IMG/VR virus record: IMGVR_UViG_2534681697_000018
Location: 1 to 23,995 of that record
Reading direction: 5' to 3' (one strand)
DNA from: a virus
Taxonomy: Duplodnaviria > Heunggongvirae > Uroviricota > Caudoviricetes
DNA: 23,995 bases
Every line of letters starts with the position of its first letter. Position 1 is the first letter of the stretch. Shown here in pieces: positions 18,001-23,995 of this stretch. Position numbers: made by a program.

Positions 18001-21000
18001 ACTTTTCAGGGAAAACGGTAAATCTCACTGCCGACGAACTGCTGAATATTATCGGTAAACAAATGAAATTCGTCGGTCCCTGTGAATTCACTGAAGATGT
18101 CAGAATCAAGGGTAAATCATTCAGCGAACACATTCATAAGGACGGCGACAATGAGAATACATCACCGCCCGTATGACAACAGAAATCCGCTGGAATAACA
18201 TGCTCTCACGGGGTGACATCACCGTCACCCATAACGGCCTCTCACGAGATGAGGGGCTGGTCACTCAGGTTCTTATCTGCCTTTTCACCGATGCCCGCGC
18301 TGATGACGATGATGTCATTCCTGACGGCTCCGGCGACCCGCGCGGCTGGCCGGGCGACACGTACAGCGATTTTTCGTGGGGTTCCCGCCTGTGGCTGCTT
18401 GAGCGTGAAAAGCTGACGGAAGATGTCCGCCTGCGCGTGGAAGATTACGCGCGGCTGTCCATGCAGCCGCTTCTGCGTGCCGGTTACGCCCGTAACGCCA
18501 CCGTCACGGCCAGCATCATCATTCCTGACCGTATTGCCTTTCTGGTGGTGTTAACCCGCCCGGACAAAACCACACTCAGAATCGAAATCACCCGTCGATG
18601 GGAGGCCACCATTAATGCCGTATGAAATCCCCACGCTGGGCAAACTGATTGCCGACGGCGAAAAAGATATTGCGTATGAACTCGGCCTGCAAAAGCTGCC
18701 GCCTGTCAGTGTTGAGCAGGCGCTGAACGTGTCATTCAGCAGTCAGGTCCGGGATTTATACGACCATCAGAGCTGGATTAAGGACCAGATAATCCCGTCC
18801 ACCACGTCTGATGATGAAACCATTATCAAAACAGCAAAGTATGAAGGGGTTATCCGCAAGCAGGCCACCTTTGCCAGCGGGCGGGTGACCTTCACCAGTC
18901 AGTCCCCCCTTCCGGCAGAAACCCGGATGCAGTCCGACACGAACCAGGTGTATCAGGTACTCACGTCCGGCGAGGTGCAGGACGGCGAGGTCACCGTCAT
19001 CGTGCAGGCTGAAGAAGCCGGTGTGGCGGGCAATCTTGCTGCCGGTGCCGTACTCACCCTGCTGTCCCCGCTGCCCGGAACGGCCAGCACAGGCGCGGTG
19101 GCTGAAGGTGGCATCACCGGTGGCGCAGACACTGAATCCATCGCAGCGCTGCTGGACCGTCTGCTGTATGTGCGCCGCAATCCACCGACAGGCGGCGCGT
19201 TGCATGACTACGTGATATGGGCGCGTGAAGTGCCGGGCGTCAGCCGCGCGTGGGCGTGGGATGCATGGCACGGCCCCGGCACGGTCGGGCTGGCATGGCT
19301 TTATGATGACCGGGAAAACATCGTGCCAACCCGCGAAGACCTGAAGACAATGGAGCAGTATCTGTTCTGCCACAAACACCCGGCCACGGGCGTGATGGTG
19401 GGTAAACCGGGCGGCATTGAGGTCTGGCCGGTACAGGTCAGGCTGAAGAAAGTCAGCATATCCATCCGTCTGACACCGGACAGCCTGGCGAACAGGAGCG
19501 CCGTCCGGGCAAACCTGACCGCGTTACAGAAGACACTGGCACCCGGTCAGACGCTGCCGGTGTCCTCGCTGCGCACGGCCATCGGTATGACGTCCGGCAT
19601 CACGGATTACTTCCTTAACATCGGGGAGGACACCACCAGTGATGTGGATGAGCTTATCACCATCGGGGAGGTGACATGGCTCACAGCGTGACGGAATGGC
19701 TGGCCGCACTGCAACAGGTCATGCCACGGGGTAAGGCATGGCCGCGTGATAACGACGCGGATTTAAACCGCTTTTTAAGGGCGCTTGCAGAACGTTTAAA
19801 CCGCACTGAATACGACGCCTCGCGTCTGCATGTGGAGATGCGACCGGAAACCACGCTCCGGCTGCTGCCGGAGTGGGAGCAGTATCTGGCGCTGCCGGAA
19901 TGCGGAATTGCCCCCACCACCAGGGAAGCCCGCCGCCGTGCCGTGGTGGAGAAATACCGTCGCAGGGGCGGGCTGGCAACCTGGCAGACTGAAGCCGCAG
20001 CAGCGGCGCTGGGCTTCACCATTAAGGTGACAGCCGTTCTGCCGCACCACTGTCTGCGCGACTGCATGTATCCGCTGCATCCGGCGCGGTATCGCTGGAT
20101 GCTGAAAGTGAACGTCCCGGGTAAAGATGCCGGGCGGTTTACCTGTATTGATGGCGTCATGACACCATTAATCAGCGAACGCACCCGTGAGCTGGAATGC
20201 CTGCTGAAGCATTACCGGCTGGCGGGCACGGAATATGAATATTATTACACCGGAGAATAATTTATGTTTTATGTGGATAACCCGACGGGTGTGCCGGTAA
20301 TGCCACCTGTCGCGGCTGAATTAAGCAAAACAACGCTTTATTTCACCGAAGGCGGGAACGGTATTCCGCCCACGTATCCGGGGCCGGACTGGTTTAATAT
20401 TATTCAGTCTGAATTACTGGAAATACTCCGGCAGGCAAATATCAAACCGGATAAAAACACAACCGACCAGATTATGACAGCGCTGAAAAAACTGTTTATT
20501 ACGAACAGTGGTTCAGCCGGAGCTATTGCCGGATTAACCGGTCAGAATAATATGTTCCCGTATTTTACCGGCAAAGACACAATGGCATTAACGCCGCTCA
20601 GTGCTTTTGTTCGCGGTATTCTCGGGAAAAACAGCGCCAGTGAATTTATTAAAGCAATCGGCCTGTCACCAGACATCCTTTTATCAAAAGGACCGGTGAC
20701 AGCATTAAGCAGTACAGCACAGGGCAATGCAGGACTTCAGATGTATGAAGTGTACAACAACGGCTATCCCACAGCTTATGGCAATGTTCTGCATCTGAAA
20801 GGCGCGGCAGCATCTGGCGAAGGCGAACTGCTGATTGGCTGGAGTGGCACGAGCGGTGCACATGCTCCGGTTTATATTCGCTCAAGGCGTGATACCACCG
20901 ATGCAGTCTGGTCTGAATGGGCGCAGGTGTTTACATCAAAAGACAGCTTCAACGCAGCATCCGCCACAAAACTACAGACCCCAAGCAAAATTAACGGTAC

Positions 21001-23995
21001 GGCATTTGATGGCACCAGAGATATCACCATCAGCAGCACCGATTCTGGTGCAGTACGTGATTTCAGATACACCAGCGAAGTGTTTCACAATCCCGGTGGT
21101 AACGAAATTTCCTGGGTATTCCGCGCGCCTTCAGGGTGTATTTTGTCAGGTATTAACGTTCAGGAAACTGGCAAAAGCTCTGCGGATAACATCGGGGGTG
21201 TGTATTACAAACAAACTCAGATTTATATCAATGGCGGATGGCGCACGGTATCCGGCTAATTAAGGAGAAAATAATGGAACTCAGAAACGTCACGCGTTAT
21301 TACCCGGAAGAAATGCCTTATGGTGAAAACATTCAGTATTTCCGCAGTGAAGACGGACAGGATTTTTATGAATCACTGGATAAATTCACGAAGAAATACA
21401 AATTATGTATTCACCCGGAAACCGGCGTGATTTATTCAATGGCAGAAGACGTGTCCCGTCTTTATCCTGTTGGTTTTACCATTGTGGAAGTGGATGAGCT
21501 GCCGGAGGGTTTTGACATCGAAGCCAGCTGGTATTACCGGGATGGCGAAGTACTGCCAGTTCCTGTTGATTATTCGAAACTGGCAGAAAAGCAACGTCAG
21601 CGCTTGCTGAATGAAGCAAAGGAAATCACTTCCGACTGGAAAACCAAGCTGGAGCTGGGCACCATCAGCGACGATGACAAAGTCCGTCTTACGCAGTGGA
21701 TGGAATATATCAAAGCGGTGAAGGTGCTGGATTTAAGCACTGCTACCGATGAAATCTCCTTTGATGCCATCAACTGGCCGGAGCGTCCCGATGCCGCAGC
21801 TTAAAGGTGTGATTAAAACGCCCACGGGAGAACCGCTGGGCGGCGCAACAATTACACTGACCTCCCTGCACAACCGTGCAGGGATTCTGAAAGGCGTTTT
21901 CAGCCACGTCACCACACAGAGCGGGGAGTATGACTTCCCCGTTCTGCCGGGCGTGTACAGCGTTCGCCTGACACAGAGCGCACAACGCCTTTCAGAAATC
22001 GGTGTCATTCGCGTTTATGAAGATTCAGCGGACGGTTCGCTGAATGATTTTCTGGGCGCAACTGATATTGACCTGTGTCCGGAATCCCTGAAGAAATTCG
22101 AAGAGCTGGCGCAACAGGCGCAGCAGAGTGCCGGGGCCGCAGCCGGAAACGCACAGCAGACGGCGCAGGATGTGGCGGCAGCCGCAGCCGGACAGAGCGC
22201 ACAGGATGCCGCAGGTTATGCCCGCGCAGCAGAACAGGCCAAAAATGACATTGATGCTGCGCTGACCGGCACTCTGAAAATGGCTAACCATCTGTCAGAA
22301 ATCGCAGCAGCAGGCGAAAAGGCACAACAGAAGTCCCGGGATAATCTGAGGCTGAAAAGTGCGGCCACGATGGAAGCACAGAGCGACATTTACGACCGGA
22401 CAAAAGGCCGTCTGGCGATACCCGGCGCATTCGGCTTTGGGTGTGCTTTTCTGCCTGAAGATGTTATCCGTTTTGACACTAAGAGTGATTTCCTGGCCTG
22501 GGTAAGGAATGCGCTGCCAGGTGAATATTCCGTTGCTGGCCCCTACGGCATCATCATACCCGACACACGGTTTGAAGGGGGGCTCAGCATCCGGTGGACT
22601 GATGCACGCCCTGAGACAAGGGAACCGCGGTACAGAGCCAAATCCCTTACTTTTTACGGCATTAACGGCCCCATTTATCACACCCGCTACTGCTACTGGC
22701 CCATATCCAGACTGACTGGGTGAAAATAAATATAGCCACAGAAGATATTATTTACAGAATCGTGGCGAGCTCTGTCCGCAACAGATGGGGAGACCCTGAC
22801 ATTGGCGGGCTGATTATTGCTGCGTACCAGGGAAAAGCTGACGGTGATAAAGACATCAGACTTGTCAGGGGGCGGTCATACAGAGGCTCACGACTGGGAC
22901 CGGTGGGGATTTCAGCGCCCTGTACTCCCACCGGAACGCATATAGTATACCCACAATATTTCATTACGGGATGTTCAGAGCATTCATTACCGGGGTCATA
23001 TTGCGCCCTGTCCGGGGTGCCGGATACATATGTCTCTGGCGCAATGCCCGGGCTTTTTATTCGCACATCGTGAGGAATGCACTGTGGAAATTAAAAAAAT
23101 CATTAATCCCCGTTATACCGAAAGTGGCGCAGTAGACTGTGACGTTTTTTTTGACGACAGGGACCAGGCAGTCCCCTACACAGCCACCGCTGATGATGTC
23201 GCTTCGACGGGTCAGCAAATCTGGCAGGAACTGCAAAGCGGCAAATGGGGTGAGATAGCCCCATTCACTGTGACACCAGAAATGCTGGAAGCGGCCAGAG
23301 AGGCCAGACGTCAGGGAATTGAAGCATGGCGCACAGAACAGGAGGCGAAGCCGTTCACGTTTGAATGGAACGGTCGTATCTGGAATGCTGGCCCCAACTC
23401 ACTGGGCCGCCTTTATCCGGTGGTAATGGCTGCGAAATCGTAAGCGCCCCGAGAAGTACGTAGCGTAAGGATTATTTTACAGACGAGAAGTTCCAGGGCA
23501 GCAGTTCATGCACTTGGTTCGACGGCCAGTCATTGAGCTTCTCGATCACTTCGCGCAACCAGTCCTCCGGCTCCACTTCGTTCTGTTTGCAGGTGACCAG
23601 CAGACTGTAGATGATCGCCGCACTTTCTCCTCCCTTGTCTGAGCCGAAAAAGAGATAATTTTTTCTTCCAACCGCCACCGATCGTAACGCGTTTTCACCG
23701 ATGTTGTTGTCTATTTCCACCCAGCCGTCACGACAGAACTCGTTCAGCGCATTCCAGTGATTCAGGATATAGTCGAACGCCTTCGCCATCTCCGCATGTT
23801 TCGACAGCGTTTCCCTCTGCAACTGTATCCAGTCGTACAACGACTGCATCAACTGGACGCTTCTGGCTTTTCTGACTGCAAGCCGTTCCTCTGCCGGACT
23901 GCCACGTATCTCCGCTTCTATGTCGTATAACTCTGCTATCCGTCTGAGCGCTTCCTGAGTCATTTCTGTCGGACGGCGCACATCCTCGTCATGGA

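What the first reader, a model, noticed from the sequence alone, without database searches (positions are those of the whole stretch)
20264..23443. Two tandem tail-fibre modules of different ancestry at the distal end of the tail cluster
A Mu/e14-type fibre and fibre chaperone (20264-21804) are followed on the same strand by an ORF whose N-terminus follows the lambdoid side-tail-fibre pattern (...VYEDS.DG.LNDFLGA...), then a poorly coding stretch and a second chaperone-like gene cut by IS66. The region is more AT-rich than the upstream tail genes. The lambdoid-type N-terminal domain in a Mu-like tail context suggests modular exchange of receptor-binding genes. The atypical C-terminal composition and the out-of-frame ORF 22720-23073 suggest the second fibre is partly degraded. 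No invertase gene or recognisable crossover site was found, so this is not demonstrably an invertible host-range switch.
Basis: partly seen in the sequence, partly recalled or inferred. Interest (0 to 1): 0.5.

Follow-up and report, generated by a model that had tools for sequence, protein, structure and literature searches.

The report
Decayed dual tail-fibre module, Mu-like prophage
The end of this defective Mu-like prophage in Shigella boydii carries two tail-fibre-plus-chaperone gene pairs, a layout shared by its whole prophage lineage and by phage phiP27, and here the second pair is dead, so the finding is real but ordinary.

Summary
The window is contig AERN01000091.1 of Shigella boydii ATCC 9905.

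- **Pair 1 (20264-21804):** a fibre whose first 81 residues match Mu S/gp49, the part that docks on baseplate protein gp48, followed by a Mu U-type chaperone (Caudo_TAP).
- **Pair 2 (21791-23443):** a fibre with a lambda-Stf-type N-terminal "collar" domain (PF08400), a coiled coil and a ~210-residue C-terminal domain, followed by a DUF4376 chaperone.
- **"Poorly coding stretch":** this is wrong. ORF 22720-23073 is the true C-terminus of fibre 2, split off by one 4-bp deletion (CTGGCTGG to CTGG). Three assemblies carry the deletion and three relatives are intact.
- **IS66 cut:** the DUF4376 gene is cut at 23440 by an IS66-family element that also supplies its stop codon.
- **Not a local recombination:** every close relative whose contig reaches far enough has gp48, fibre 1, chaperone, fibre 2 N-terminus and, with two exceptions, DUF4376, then com and mom, all on one strand. 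Inducible phage phiP27 has the same fibre layout.
- **No inversion switch:** no invertase gene and no gix-like site were found.

The pair sits where Mu has U'-S'-gin. Where a collar-type fibre attaches on a contractile tail is untested. Solved myophage homologues attach at the neck. Interest is low.

The parts
19676..20260 (+). Mu gp48-type baseplate wedge protein (YmfQ family). In Mu this protein carries the docking site for the S-type fibre.
   Evidence: PF10076 Phage_Mu_Gp48 3.4e-30. Mu gp48 9ki1_a E 1e-21. The docking role is taken from PMC11915804.
20264..21259 (+). Fibre 1, 331 residues. The N-terminus is the Mu S/gp49 type. The C-terminal part is an exchangeable cassette, and its tip resembles the phiTE short tail fibre.
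   Evidence: Residues 1-81 match Mu S residues 1-81, E 4e-21. Residues 241-331 match 9cuy_c residues 462-554, E 1e-14. phrog_1833 1e-115. Identity to L001 breaks at 20637/20638. The protein is EFW53286.1.
21274..21804 (+). Tail-fibre assembly chaperone 1, Mu U / Caudo_TAP type, 176 residues from the ATG that follows a ribosome-binding site. The longer ORF starts at 21238.
   Evidence: PF02413 1.9e-22. Mu U 5yvq_B 2.7e-15. AAGGAG lies 7 nt upstream of 21274. Gene callers also use 21274.
21791..22723 (+). Fibre 2, 5' fragment of 310 codons: lambda-Stf-type collar domain (about residues 1-95), Ala/Gln-rich coiled coil, and the first part of the C-terminal domain. It ends at a premature stop created by the frameshift. 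Its start overlaps the chaperone 1 gene by 14 nt.
   Evidence: PF08400 6.5e-28. 9e7m_Ta and 7kjk_A3. The protein is EFW53288.1.
22712..22727 (+). Frameshift site. One unit of the tandem CTGGCTGG is missing, so intact ...GACTGGCTGGGTGAAA reads ...GACTGGGTGAAA here.
   Evidence: Alignment to L001. Deleted allele in the window, L004 and L031; intact allele in L001, L008 and L037.
22720..23073 (+). Fibre 2, 3' fragment (117 codons), the out-of-frame continuation of the C-terminal domain. Restoring CTGG gives one 428-residue fibre.
   Evidence: Repaired translation. The last 229 residues of the repaired protein are about 92-93% identical to intact Shigella homologues. tblastn finds hits in two frames.
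23084..23443 (+). DUF4376-family fibre chaperone 2, truncated to 119 of about 188 codons counted from the same GTG start (relatives are annotated at 188-208 residues). Most of the DUF4376 domain is lost.
   Evidence: PF14301 weak hit here (0.0014) and 5e-16 in full-length L001. phrog_1141 1e-84. GAGGAA ribosome-binding site before the GTG. The protein is EFW53289.1.
23440..23995 (-). End of an IS66-family element (transposase C-terminus on the minus strand) inserted in the chaperone 2 gene. It runs off the window.
   Evidence: PF03050 and PF13817. 99.6% identical to the reverse complement of 7254-7809; terminal sequence GTAAGCGCCCCGAGAAG.
7254..7809 (+). Matching end of a second IS66-family copy, which truncates the prophage on its left side. 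The prophage remnant is therefore 7810-23439.
   Evidence: Prophage homology to E. coli relatives starts at 7810. IS66 transposase at 6176-7777.

Best explanation
This is the host-recognition end of a defective Mu-like prophage of Shigella boydii ATCC 9905. In this prophage lineage Mu's invertible G segment and gin are absent. Between the first chaperone gene and com-mom sits a second, co-oriented fibre-chaperone pair.

- Pair 1 is an S-type fibre. Its N-terminus should dock on the gp48 wedge as in Mu, and a U-type (Caudo_TAP) chaperone should fold it.
- Pair 2 is a fibre with a lambda-Stf-type N-terminal collar domain, a trimeric coiled coil and a ~210-residue C-terminal receptor-binding domain of no recognised fold. 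A DUF4376 chaperone should fold it.
- The fibre 2 start overlaps the chaperone 1 gene by 14 nt, and no terminator lies between the pairs. Both pairs would therefore be made together from the late tail operon, giving virions with two receptor specificities at once instead of Mu's either/or switch.
- Host range evolves by swapping cassettes made of a fibre C-terminus plus the N-terminal part of its chaperone.
- In this copy pair 2 is dead. A 4-bp slippage deletion splits fibre 2, and an IS66 element removes about a third of the chaperone. The whole prophage is a 15.6-kb remnant bracketed by two inverted IS66 copies.

Shown: gene identities, the lineage-wide layout, the two lesions and the absence of an invertase. 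Inferred: co-expression, dual specificity and the attachment sites.
For: - Domain identities.
- Layout gp48, fibre 1, chaperone, fibre 2, DUF4376, com, mom in L001, L003 and L004 and in the IMG/VR relatives. A Gin query found nothing.
- phiP27 genes L53-L57 have the same order.
- No gix-like site or flanking inverted repeats.
- Frameshift. IS66 junction.
- Cassette boundaries.
- DUF4376 proteins are experimentally required fibre chaperones in Alteromonas phage V22 and the Campylobacter CJIE1 prophage (PMC10579305, PMC7882524).
- Mu gp49 N-terminus docks on gp48 (PMC11915804).
- No intergenic terminator-like site between the pairs.
Against: - There are no expression or virion data for any member of the lineage, so co-assembly of both fibres is inferred.
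- The collar domain binds a tube/tip ring junction in lambda, and on a contractile tail the sheath covers the tube. Its docking site on a Mu-like tail is therefore unknown.
- Two relatives lack recognisable pair-2 distal parts. L013 appears deleted, and L020 has about 1.7 kb of unmatched sequence there.
Confidence: 0.8

Rival explanations
1. Fibre 2 is a neck (collar) fibre rather than a baseplate-proximal side fibre. Its collar domain would wrap the adaptor/terminator rings at the head-tail junction, as in Vibrio myophage XM1 gp40 and cyanophage A-1(L) gp82. The virion would then carry receptor-binding fibres at both ends of the tail. This refines the main explanation and does not exclude it.
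Against: The gene lies in the baseplate/fibre cluster, not near the neck genes. No sequence similarity to XM1 proteins was found for the two candidate neck proteins searched, the Mu gp36-like adaptor at 8116-8553 and the product of 8550-9095. At about 430-470 residues the fibre would be short for reaching the cell surface from the neck. No structure exists for any Mu-like phage that carries this fibre.
Confidence: 0.3
2. The split of fibre 2 into 21791-22723 and 22720-23073 is a sequencing or assembly artefact, or a programmed frameshift, and the gene is functional.
For: The lesion is a single short indel in a tandem repeat, a context where errors and slippage both occur. Both fragments remain otherwise open and conserved.
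Against: The same deleted allele is present in the complete genome CP026875.1 (99.7% identical over 9.2 kb) and in a third assembly, L031. Intact relatives have CTGGCTGG in one frame. No slippery heptamer or stimulatory structure is evident, and the gene is a single ORF in every intact relative. The partner chaperone is destroyed by IS66 here anyway.
Confidence: 0.04
3. The two modules are the frozen remnant of a Mu-type invertible host-range switch that lost its invertase.
For: The pair occupies the position of U'-S'-gin between U and com-mom in Mu. The C-terminal part of fibre 1 is related to P1/P7 Sv and Sv' invertible-segment sequences.
Against: Both pairs are on the same strand in every relative. 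Fibre 2 has its own complete N-terminal anchor and is not a variable C-terminal exon that needs fusion to a constant S region. No gix-like site, no flanking inverted repeats and no invertase occur in the window or in 30+ related loci.
Confidence: 0.05

Closest known systems
Phage Mu G segment (S-U / U'-S' with gin) and the Mu fibre-baseplate structure (PDB 9ki1, 5yvq)
   Same: The gp46-gp47-gp48 baseplate genes, the S-type fibre N-terminus (residues 1-81), the U-type chaperone, and com-mom downstream in relatives all match Mu. The second fibre pair sits where U'-S'-gin lies in Mu.
   Different: There is no invertase, no crossover sites and no inverted gene pair. The second fibre is a complete gene with a different anchor domain (lambda Stf type) and a DUF4376 chaperone. 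Expression is expected to be simultaneous rather than alternating.
Stx2e phage phiP27 tail-fibre region, genes L53-L57 (NC_003356)
   Same: The gene order is the same: gp48-like wedge, fibre of about 332 residues, Caudo_TAP chaperone, PF08400 fibre of 490 residues, DUF4376 protein of 188 residues. The DUF4376 protein is about 67% identical to the L001 homologue.
   Different: phiP27 is a described, complete Stx2e-converting phage genome with all four genes intact and ends at attR, not at com-mom. The fibre 2 N-domain is only about 38% identical and the C-domain about 26%.
Lambda side tail fibre Stf with Tfa (Ur-lambda, PDB 9e7m)
   Same: The N-terminal ~90-residue collar domain is homologous (39% identity in the structural alignment). 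It is followed by an Ala-rich trimeric coiled coil, and a dedicated chaperone gene lies downstream.
   Different: The lambda collar sits on the gpV/gpM junction of a non-contractile tail. The lambda distal part is gp37-like and its chaperone is Caudo_TAP. Here the C-terminal domain is unrelated and the chaperone is DUF4376.
Neck-attached fibres of myophages: Vibrio phage XM1 collar spike gp40 (7kjk) and cyanophage A-1(L) neck fibre gp82 (8keg)
   Different: Their distal parts are tailspike-like. XM1 gp40 lies well away from the baseplate genes gp11-gp18 by gene number (PMC10457771), whereas fibre 2 sits in the baseplate/fibre cluster. The gene position of A-1(L) gp82 was not checked. Attachment at the neck is not shown for any Mu-like phage.
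DUF4376 tail-fibre chaperones (Alteromonas phage V22 gp27 and A5 gp9; gene downstream of the Campylobacter CJIE1 H-fibre)
   Same: A C-terminal DUF4376 domain, a gene immediately downstream of its fibre, and a variable N-terminal part that changes together with the fibre tip.
   Different: Those chaperones serve fibres with other anchors (the CJIE1 H-fibre has the P2 H-type DUF3751 domain). The copy here is truncated and cannot function.

Membership tests
Mu S/gp49-type baseplate fibre (fibre 1) | N-terminal ~80-residue domain homologous to Mu gp49, the part that docks on gp48 | tested here: met
   Residues 1-81 match Mu S residues 1-81, E 4e-21.
Mu S/gp49-type baseplate fibre (fibre 1) | Encoded directly downstream of a Mu gp48-type wedge gene and upstream of a U-type chaperone | tested here: met
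   gp48 PF10076 and 9ki1_a. Caudo_TAP and Mu U.
Mu S/gp49-type baseplate fibre (fibre 1) | Physical docking on the gp48 loop in virions | not testable with these tools
   Needs virion structure or binding assays. The prophage is defective.
Lambda Stf-type (PF08400) collar-anchored fibre (fibre 2) | N-terminal collar domain of the phage_tail_N / transthyretin-like fold | tested here: met
Lambda Stf-type (PF08400) collar-anchored fibre (fibre 2) | Coiled-coil shaft after the collar domain | tested here: inconclusive
   The model predicts long helices at residues 98-233 but with pLDDT below 50, and it is a monomer model. The sequence is Ala/Gln-rich like lambda Stf.
Lambda Stf-type (PF08400) collar-anchored fibre (fibre 2) | gp37-like distal domain and Caudo_TAP chaperone, as in lambda Stf/Tfa | tested here: not met
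   The C-domain has no gp37 or Stf match. The downstream gene is DUF4376, not Caudo_TAP. Only the anchor is Stf-like.
Lambda Stf-type (PF08400) collar-anchored fibre (fibre 2) | Intact open reading frame | tested here: not met
   A 4-bp deletion splits it into 310-codon and 117-codon fragments.
DUF4376 tail-fibre chaperone | C-terminal DUF4376 domain | tested here: not met
   Only the first 41 of 106 profile positions remain (E 0.0014, below the gathering score). Intact relatives meet it (5e-16). IS66 cuts the gene at 23440.
DUF4376 tail-fibre chaperone | Gene immediately downstream of the fibre it serves, with an N-terminal part that varies together with the fibre tip | tested here: met
   Position in the window and all relatives. 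The N-part is 49-100% identical against 62-100% for the C-part, and it tracks fibre 2 C-terminal divergence.
DUF4376 tail-fibre chaperone | Requirement for fibre folding or function | not testable with these tools
   Shown only for distant family members (PMC7882524, PMC10579305).
Gin/Pin/Cin-type invertible host-range switch | Serine invertase gene next to the fibre genes | tested here: not met
   No invertase in the window ORFs. Relatives go straight to com-mom.
Gin/Pin/Cin-type invertible host-range switch | Inverted crossover sites (gix/cix-type) flanking oppositely oriented fibre segments | tested here: not met
   No match to gixL within 3 mismatches. The core motif has no hit in the region. 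No flanking inverted repeat of 14 nt or more that makes sense. All genes are co-oriented.

The most novel reading that the evidence does not exclude
In this widespread Escherichia/Shigella Mu-like lineage, and in phiP27, the invertible G switch has been replaced by a constitutively co-expressed second fibre. Its lambda-Stf-type collar domain would dock at the neck, as in XM1 and A-1(L), giving a Mu-type virion with receptor-binding fibres at both ends of the tail and two specificities at once. Its C-terminal domain would be a receptor-binding fold not yet represented among solved structures.
Probability: 0.25. Interest if true: 0.45.

Novelty: new member of a known kind. Interest (0 to 1): 0.2.

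Why it matters
It matters little for this particular copy. This is a dead module in an IS-riddled prophage remnant, and its genes have been in GenBank as tail-fibre genes (EFW53286 to EFW53289).

The modest wider point is comparative. A common enterobacterial Mu-like lineage handles host range with two tandem fibre-chaperone pairs that use different virion anchors, where Mu uses DNA inversion. Nobody appears to have shown where the collar-type fibre sits on a contractile tail or what its C-terminal domain binds. That bears on host-range prediction and on fibre swapping for engineered phages or tailocins.

The locus is also a clean small example of Shigella genome decay, combining tandem-repeat slippage with IS66 insertion.

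Tried and rejected
- **Invertible switch:** rejected. A search with the gix sequence, a search with the crossover-core pattern, the inverted-repeat search and the Gin tblastn were all negative.
- **Assembly error or programmed frameshift:** rejected. Three assemblies share the deletion, and it is absent from three intact relatives.
- **PDB sequence search for the DUF4376 protein:** nothing significant.
- **Link between this prophage's neck proteins and the XM1 neck:** the adaptor matches Mu gp36 only. The product of 8550-9095, a possible tail-completion or terminator protein, matches nothing in the PDB. The neck hypothesis therefore stays untested.
- **Terminator and promoter scan between the two pairs:** only weak sites inside genes.
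- **Literature:** searches on Mu-like phages, Shigella and phiP27, and a term search of the SfMu paper, turned up no account of a gin-less tandem-fibre layout. The hits were judged from titles and abstract openings only.
- **Not used:** the second structure-prediction job, the representative-library HMMER job, and the metagenome and genome-contig scans. The answer did not depend on them.

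
Full report
**What the window is.** An exact-sequence look-up shows that the window is the whole 23,995-bp contig AERN01000091.1 of Shigella boydii ATCC 9905 (GCA_000193915.2). The three products in the finding are deposited as EFW53286.1 (fibre 1), EFW53288.1 (the 310-residue fibre 2 fragment) and EFW53289.1 (the 119-residue DUF4376 fragment).

- Positions 1 to about 4100 are chromosomal: a DUF535 protein, an OLD-family ATPase and a MIP channel.
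- They are followed by an IS4-type transposase and an IS66-family element.
- Homology to Mu-like prophages of E. coli starts abruptly at 7810. It runs through Mu gp36-like, sheath, tape-measure, DNA-circularisation, hub, gp45, gp46, gp47 (Baseplate_J) and gp48 genes.

**Checking the observation.** The ORFs exist as described.

- **Fibre 1 (20264-21259).** Residues 1-81 align with residues 1-81 of Mu tail fibre S/gp49 (5yvq, 9ki1; E 4e-21). [quoted passage not shown] In Mu the gp49 N-terminus docks on a loop of gp48 (PMC11915804). The upstream gene here is a clear Mu gp48 homologue (9ki1_a, 1e-21).
- **Chaperone 1.** The next gene is a Caudo_TAP chaperone homologous to Mu U. An AAGGAG ribosome-binding site and the gene callers put its start at 21274.
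- **Fibre 2 (from 21791).** It starts 14 nt before the chaperone's stop codon. It carries PF08400 (6.5e-28) and matches lambda StfN (9e7m) and the collar spike gp40 of Vibrio myophage XM1 (7kjk).
- **Last gene (GTG at 23084).** It belongs to DUF4376.
- **Composition.** GC is 0.47-0.49 in pair 1 and 0.51-0.59 in pair 2, against 0.53-0.60 (GC3 up to 0.72) in the baseplate genes.

**The "poorly coding stretch".** Alignment with the closest E. coli relative, NZ_CP065615 (L001), gives this picture:

| Window | Relation to L001 |
|---|---|
| 18000-20637 | 99.2% identical |
| 20638-21718 | no similarity |
| 21719-22186 | 92.5% identical |
| coiled-coil region | 120 bp (40 codons) shorter in the window, in frame |
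| 22178-23439 | 96.8% identical, with one 4-bp gap |

- The intact relative reads GACTGGCTGGGTG and the window reads GACTGGGTG.
- Restoring CTGG fuses 21791-22719 and 22720-23073 into one 428-residue protein that aligns end to end with the annotated 468-residue fibre.
- Its last 229 residues are about 92-93% identical to intact 467-residue Shigella sonnei and S. dysenteriae proteins.
- The deleted allele is also present in the complete genome CP026875.1 (L004, 99.7% identical over 9.2 kb) and in a third assembly (L031). L001, L008 and L037 have the intact repeat.
- The lesion is therefore a real slippage deletion shared by a sub-lineage. It is not degraded non-coding sequence or an assembly error.

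**The IS66 cut.** Window 23440-23995 is 99.6% identical to the reverse complement of 7254-7809.

- Two inverted IS66-family copies therefore bracket the prophage remnant (7810-23439), each with the same end (GTAAGCGCCCCGAGAAG) facing inward.
- The TAA that ends the DUF4376 ORF lies inside the IS terminus.
- In L004 and L031 the DUF4376 gene is intact and followed by com and mom. The IS insertion is therefore private to this strain and later than, or independent of, the frameshift.

**Is the tandem layout a local recombination?** It is not.

- Annotated relatives show YmfQ/gp48, tail protein, fibre assembly protein, "prophage tail fiber N-terminal domain" protein, DUF4376 protein, Com and Mom, with no invertase.
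- I fetched 31 IMG/VR loci through gp48 and screened all loci by tblastn.
- Every close relative (gp48 at least 88% identical) whose contig reaches far enough has the fibre 2 N-terminus on the same strand after the chaperone. That is 24 of 24 loci, a count that includes the window's own contig and a shorter contig identical to it over its whole length.
- In L013 the distal part appears deleted. In L020 about 1.7 kb of unmatched sequence takes its place.
- The conservation pattern is informative:

| Segment | Identity to the query across close relatives (L002/phiP27 aside) |
|---|---|
| Fibre 1 N-terminal 120 residues | 82-100% |
| Fibre 1 C-terminal part | 38-100%, often only partly aligned |
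| Chaperone 1 N-terminal part | 22-100% |
| Chaperone 1 C-terminal part | 44-100% |
| Fibre 2 N-terminal 100 residues | 83-100% |
| Fibre 2 C-terminal domain | 25-100% |
| DUF4376 N-terminal part | 49-100% |
| DUF4376 C-terminal part | 62-100% |

- The exchangeable units are thus a fibre tip plus the chaperone's N-terminal (tip-binding) part, inside fixed anchors. This is the classic fibre/Tfa mosaic pattern.
- The Stx2e-converting phage phiP27, a complete phage genome, has the same gene order in L53-L57.
- A more distant Mu-like group (L026-L034) instead has two tandem fibres that both carry S-type N-termini.
- No gix-like site, no meaningful inverted repeats and no Gin-like ORF were found.

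**What fibre 2 looks like.** I made an AlphaFold2 model of the intact homologue P0001 from a 27-sequence alignment.

- Residues 1-90 form a beta-sandwich (pLDDT about 70).
- Residues 98-233 are long helices of low confidence, as expected for a monomer model of a trimeric coiled coil.
- Residues 260-467 form a confident mixed alpha/beta domain (pLDDT about 80-90).
- Related C-domains (30-55% identical) terminate E. coli and Salmonella fibres of 421-749 residues.

**The second chaperone.**

- DUF4376 proteins sit downstream of fibres and are needed for fibre function in Alteromonas phages V22 and A5 and for the Campylobacter CJIE1 H-fibre (PMC10579305, PMC7882524).
- One PHROG family (phrog_11571) matches the N-part of Caudo_TAP chaperone 1 and the C-part of the DUF4376 protein. 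This is consistent with DUF4376 being an alternative C-terminal module of fibre chaperones.
- "Chaperone-like" is therefore well founded by family, though not tested for this fibre.

**Mechanism.**

- *Shown:* two complete fibre-chaperone pairs are the lineage's layout. They are co-oriented, the fibre 2 start overlaps the first chaperone gene, and no credible terminator lies between the pairs. There is no inversion machinery.
- *Inferred:* both pairs are expressed together from the late tail operon and both fibres are assembled on the virion. This would give two simultaneous specificities where Mu alternates between S-U and S'-U'.
- *Inferred by homology:* fibre 1 docks on gp48.
- *Open:* the docking site of fibre 2. 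In lambda, 12 StfN domains form a collar on the gpV/gpM ring junction (PMC12617516). In XM1, six gp40 trimers bind the head-completion and terminator proteins at the neck (PMC10457771).
- On a sheathed tail the neck is the obvious exposed ring surface, so a neck-fibre reading is plausible (I put it at about 0.3). The gene's position in the baseplate cluster and the fibre's short length argue against it.
- I found no sequence similarity to XM1 proteins for the two candidate neck proteins I searched.

**In this strain the module cannot work.** Fibre 2 is frameshifted and its chaperone has lost most of the DUF4376 domain. The prophage lacks everything to the left of gp36. An IS3-family element sits at 9817-10973 among the tail genes.

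**Verdict.** The "poorly coding" segment is a frameshifted, otherwise conserved fibre C-terminus. The "lambdoid N-terminus in a Mu context" is a conserved lineage feature already annotated in public genomes and in phiP27. It is not a local exchange and not a new system. Novelty: a new, decayed member of a known kind. Interest is low (0.2). The one open question worth an experiment is where the collar-type fibre sits on a Mu-like contractile tail.

Noticed in passing
window 7254-7809 (+) and 23440-23995 (-): Two IS66-family copies, 99.6% identical over the 556 bp compared, lie in inverted orientation with the same terminus facing inward. They bracket the 15.6-kb prophage remnant (7810-23439), so both prophage ends are IS junctions. 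This looks like a composite structure or the product of IS-mediated deletion or inversion.
   Followed up: partly
window 9817-10973 (-): An IS3-family element (HTH_Tnp_1 ORF 10671-10973 and rve integrase ORF 9817-10635) is inserted among the tail morphogenesis genes, between the 203-residue ORF at 9092-9703 and the sheath gene at 11136.
   Followed up: no
window 495-4141: Chromosomal flank with a DUF535 protein (495-1523), an OLD-family ATPase/TOPRIM protein (DUF2813, 1485-3143, minus strand) and a MIP-family channel ORF (3563-4141). The MIP ORF matches only profile positions 64-222, so it may be truncated at its N-terminus. An IS4-type transposase follows at 4431-5654.
   Followed up: no
L026-L034 (for example L026 8585-13191): A more distant Mu-like prophage group (gp48 57-60% identical) has a different tandem arrangement. 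Two fibres both carry Mu S-type N-termini (250 residues with a Collar domain, and 737 residues). They are separated by a 294-residue Caudo_TAP chaperone and followed by a 247-residue ORF with no Pfam hit.
   Followed up: partly
L037 8136-9806 (IMGVR_UViG_2636415416_000005): In this close relative the fibre 1 N-terminal coding region is split by about 1.2 kb of inserted sequence, probably another IS, while fibre 2 is intact. Different members of the lineage have lost different fibres.
   Followed up: no
L013 4850-5462 and L020 9888-11870: Two relatives keep the fibre 2 N-terminal domain but lack a recognisable fibre 2 C-domain and DUF4376 gene before com-mom. L013 has only about 300 bp in between, which looks like a deletion. 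L020 has about 1.7 kb of unmatched sequence, possibly a different tip and chaperone cassette.
   Followed up: no
window 22091-22432 versus L001 8296-8415: The Ala/Gln-rich coiled coil of fibre 2 differs in length between relatives by in-frame blocks (40 codons shorter here; proteins of 421-470 residues). A 31-nt imperfect direct repeat lies at 22117-22192. This suggests repeat-mediated changes in shaft length.
   Followed up: partly
protein P0155 (Shigella sonnei): A 241-residue S. sonnei protein annotated "prophage tail protein" is 87% identical to the DUF4376 protein over 73% of its length, yet its Pfam hits are IS66 transposase domains. IS66 elements have therefore hit this same gene independently in another Shigella species, apparently in the other orientation.
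   Followed up: no
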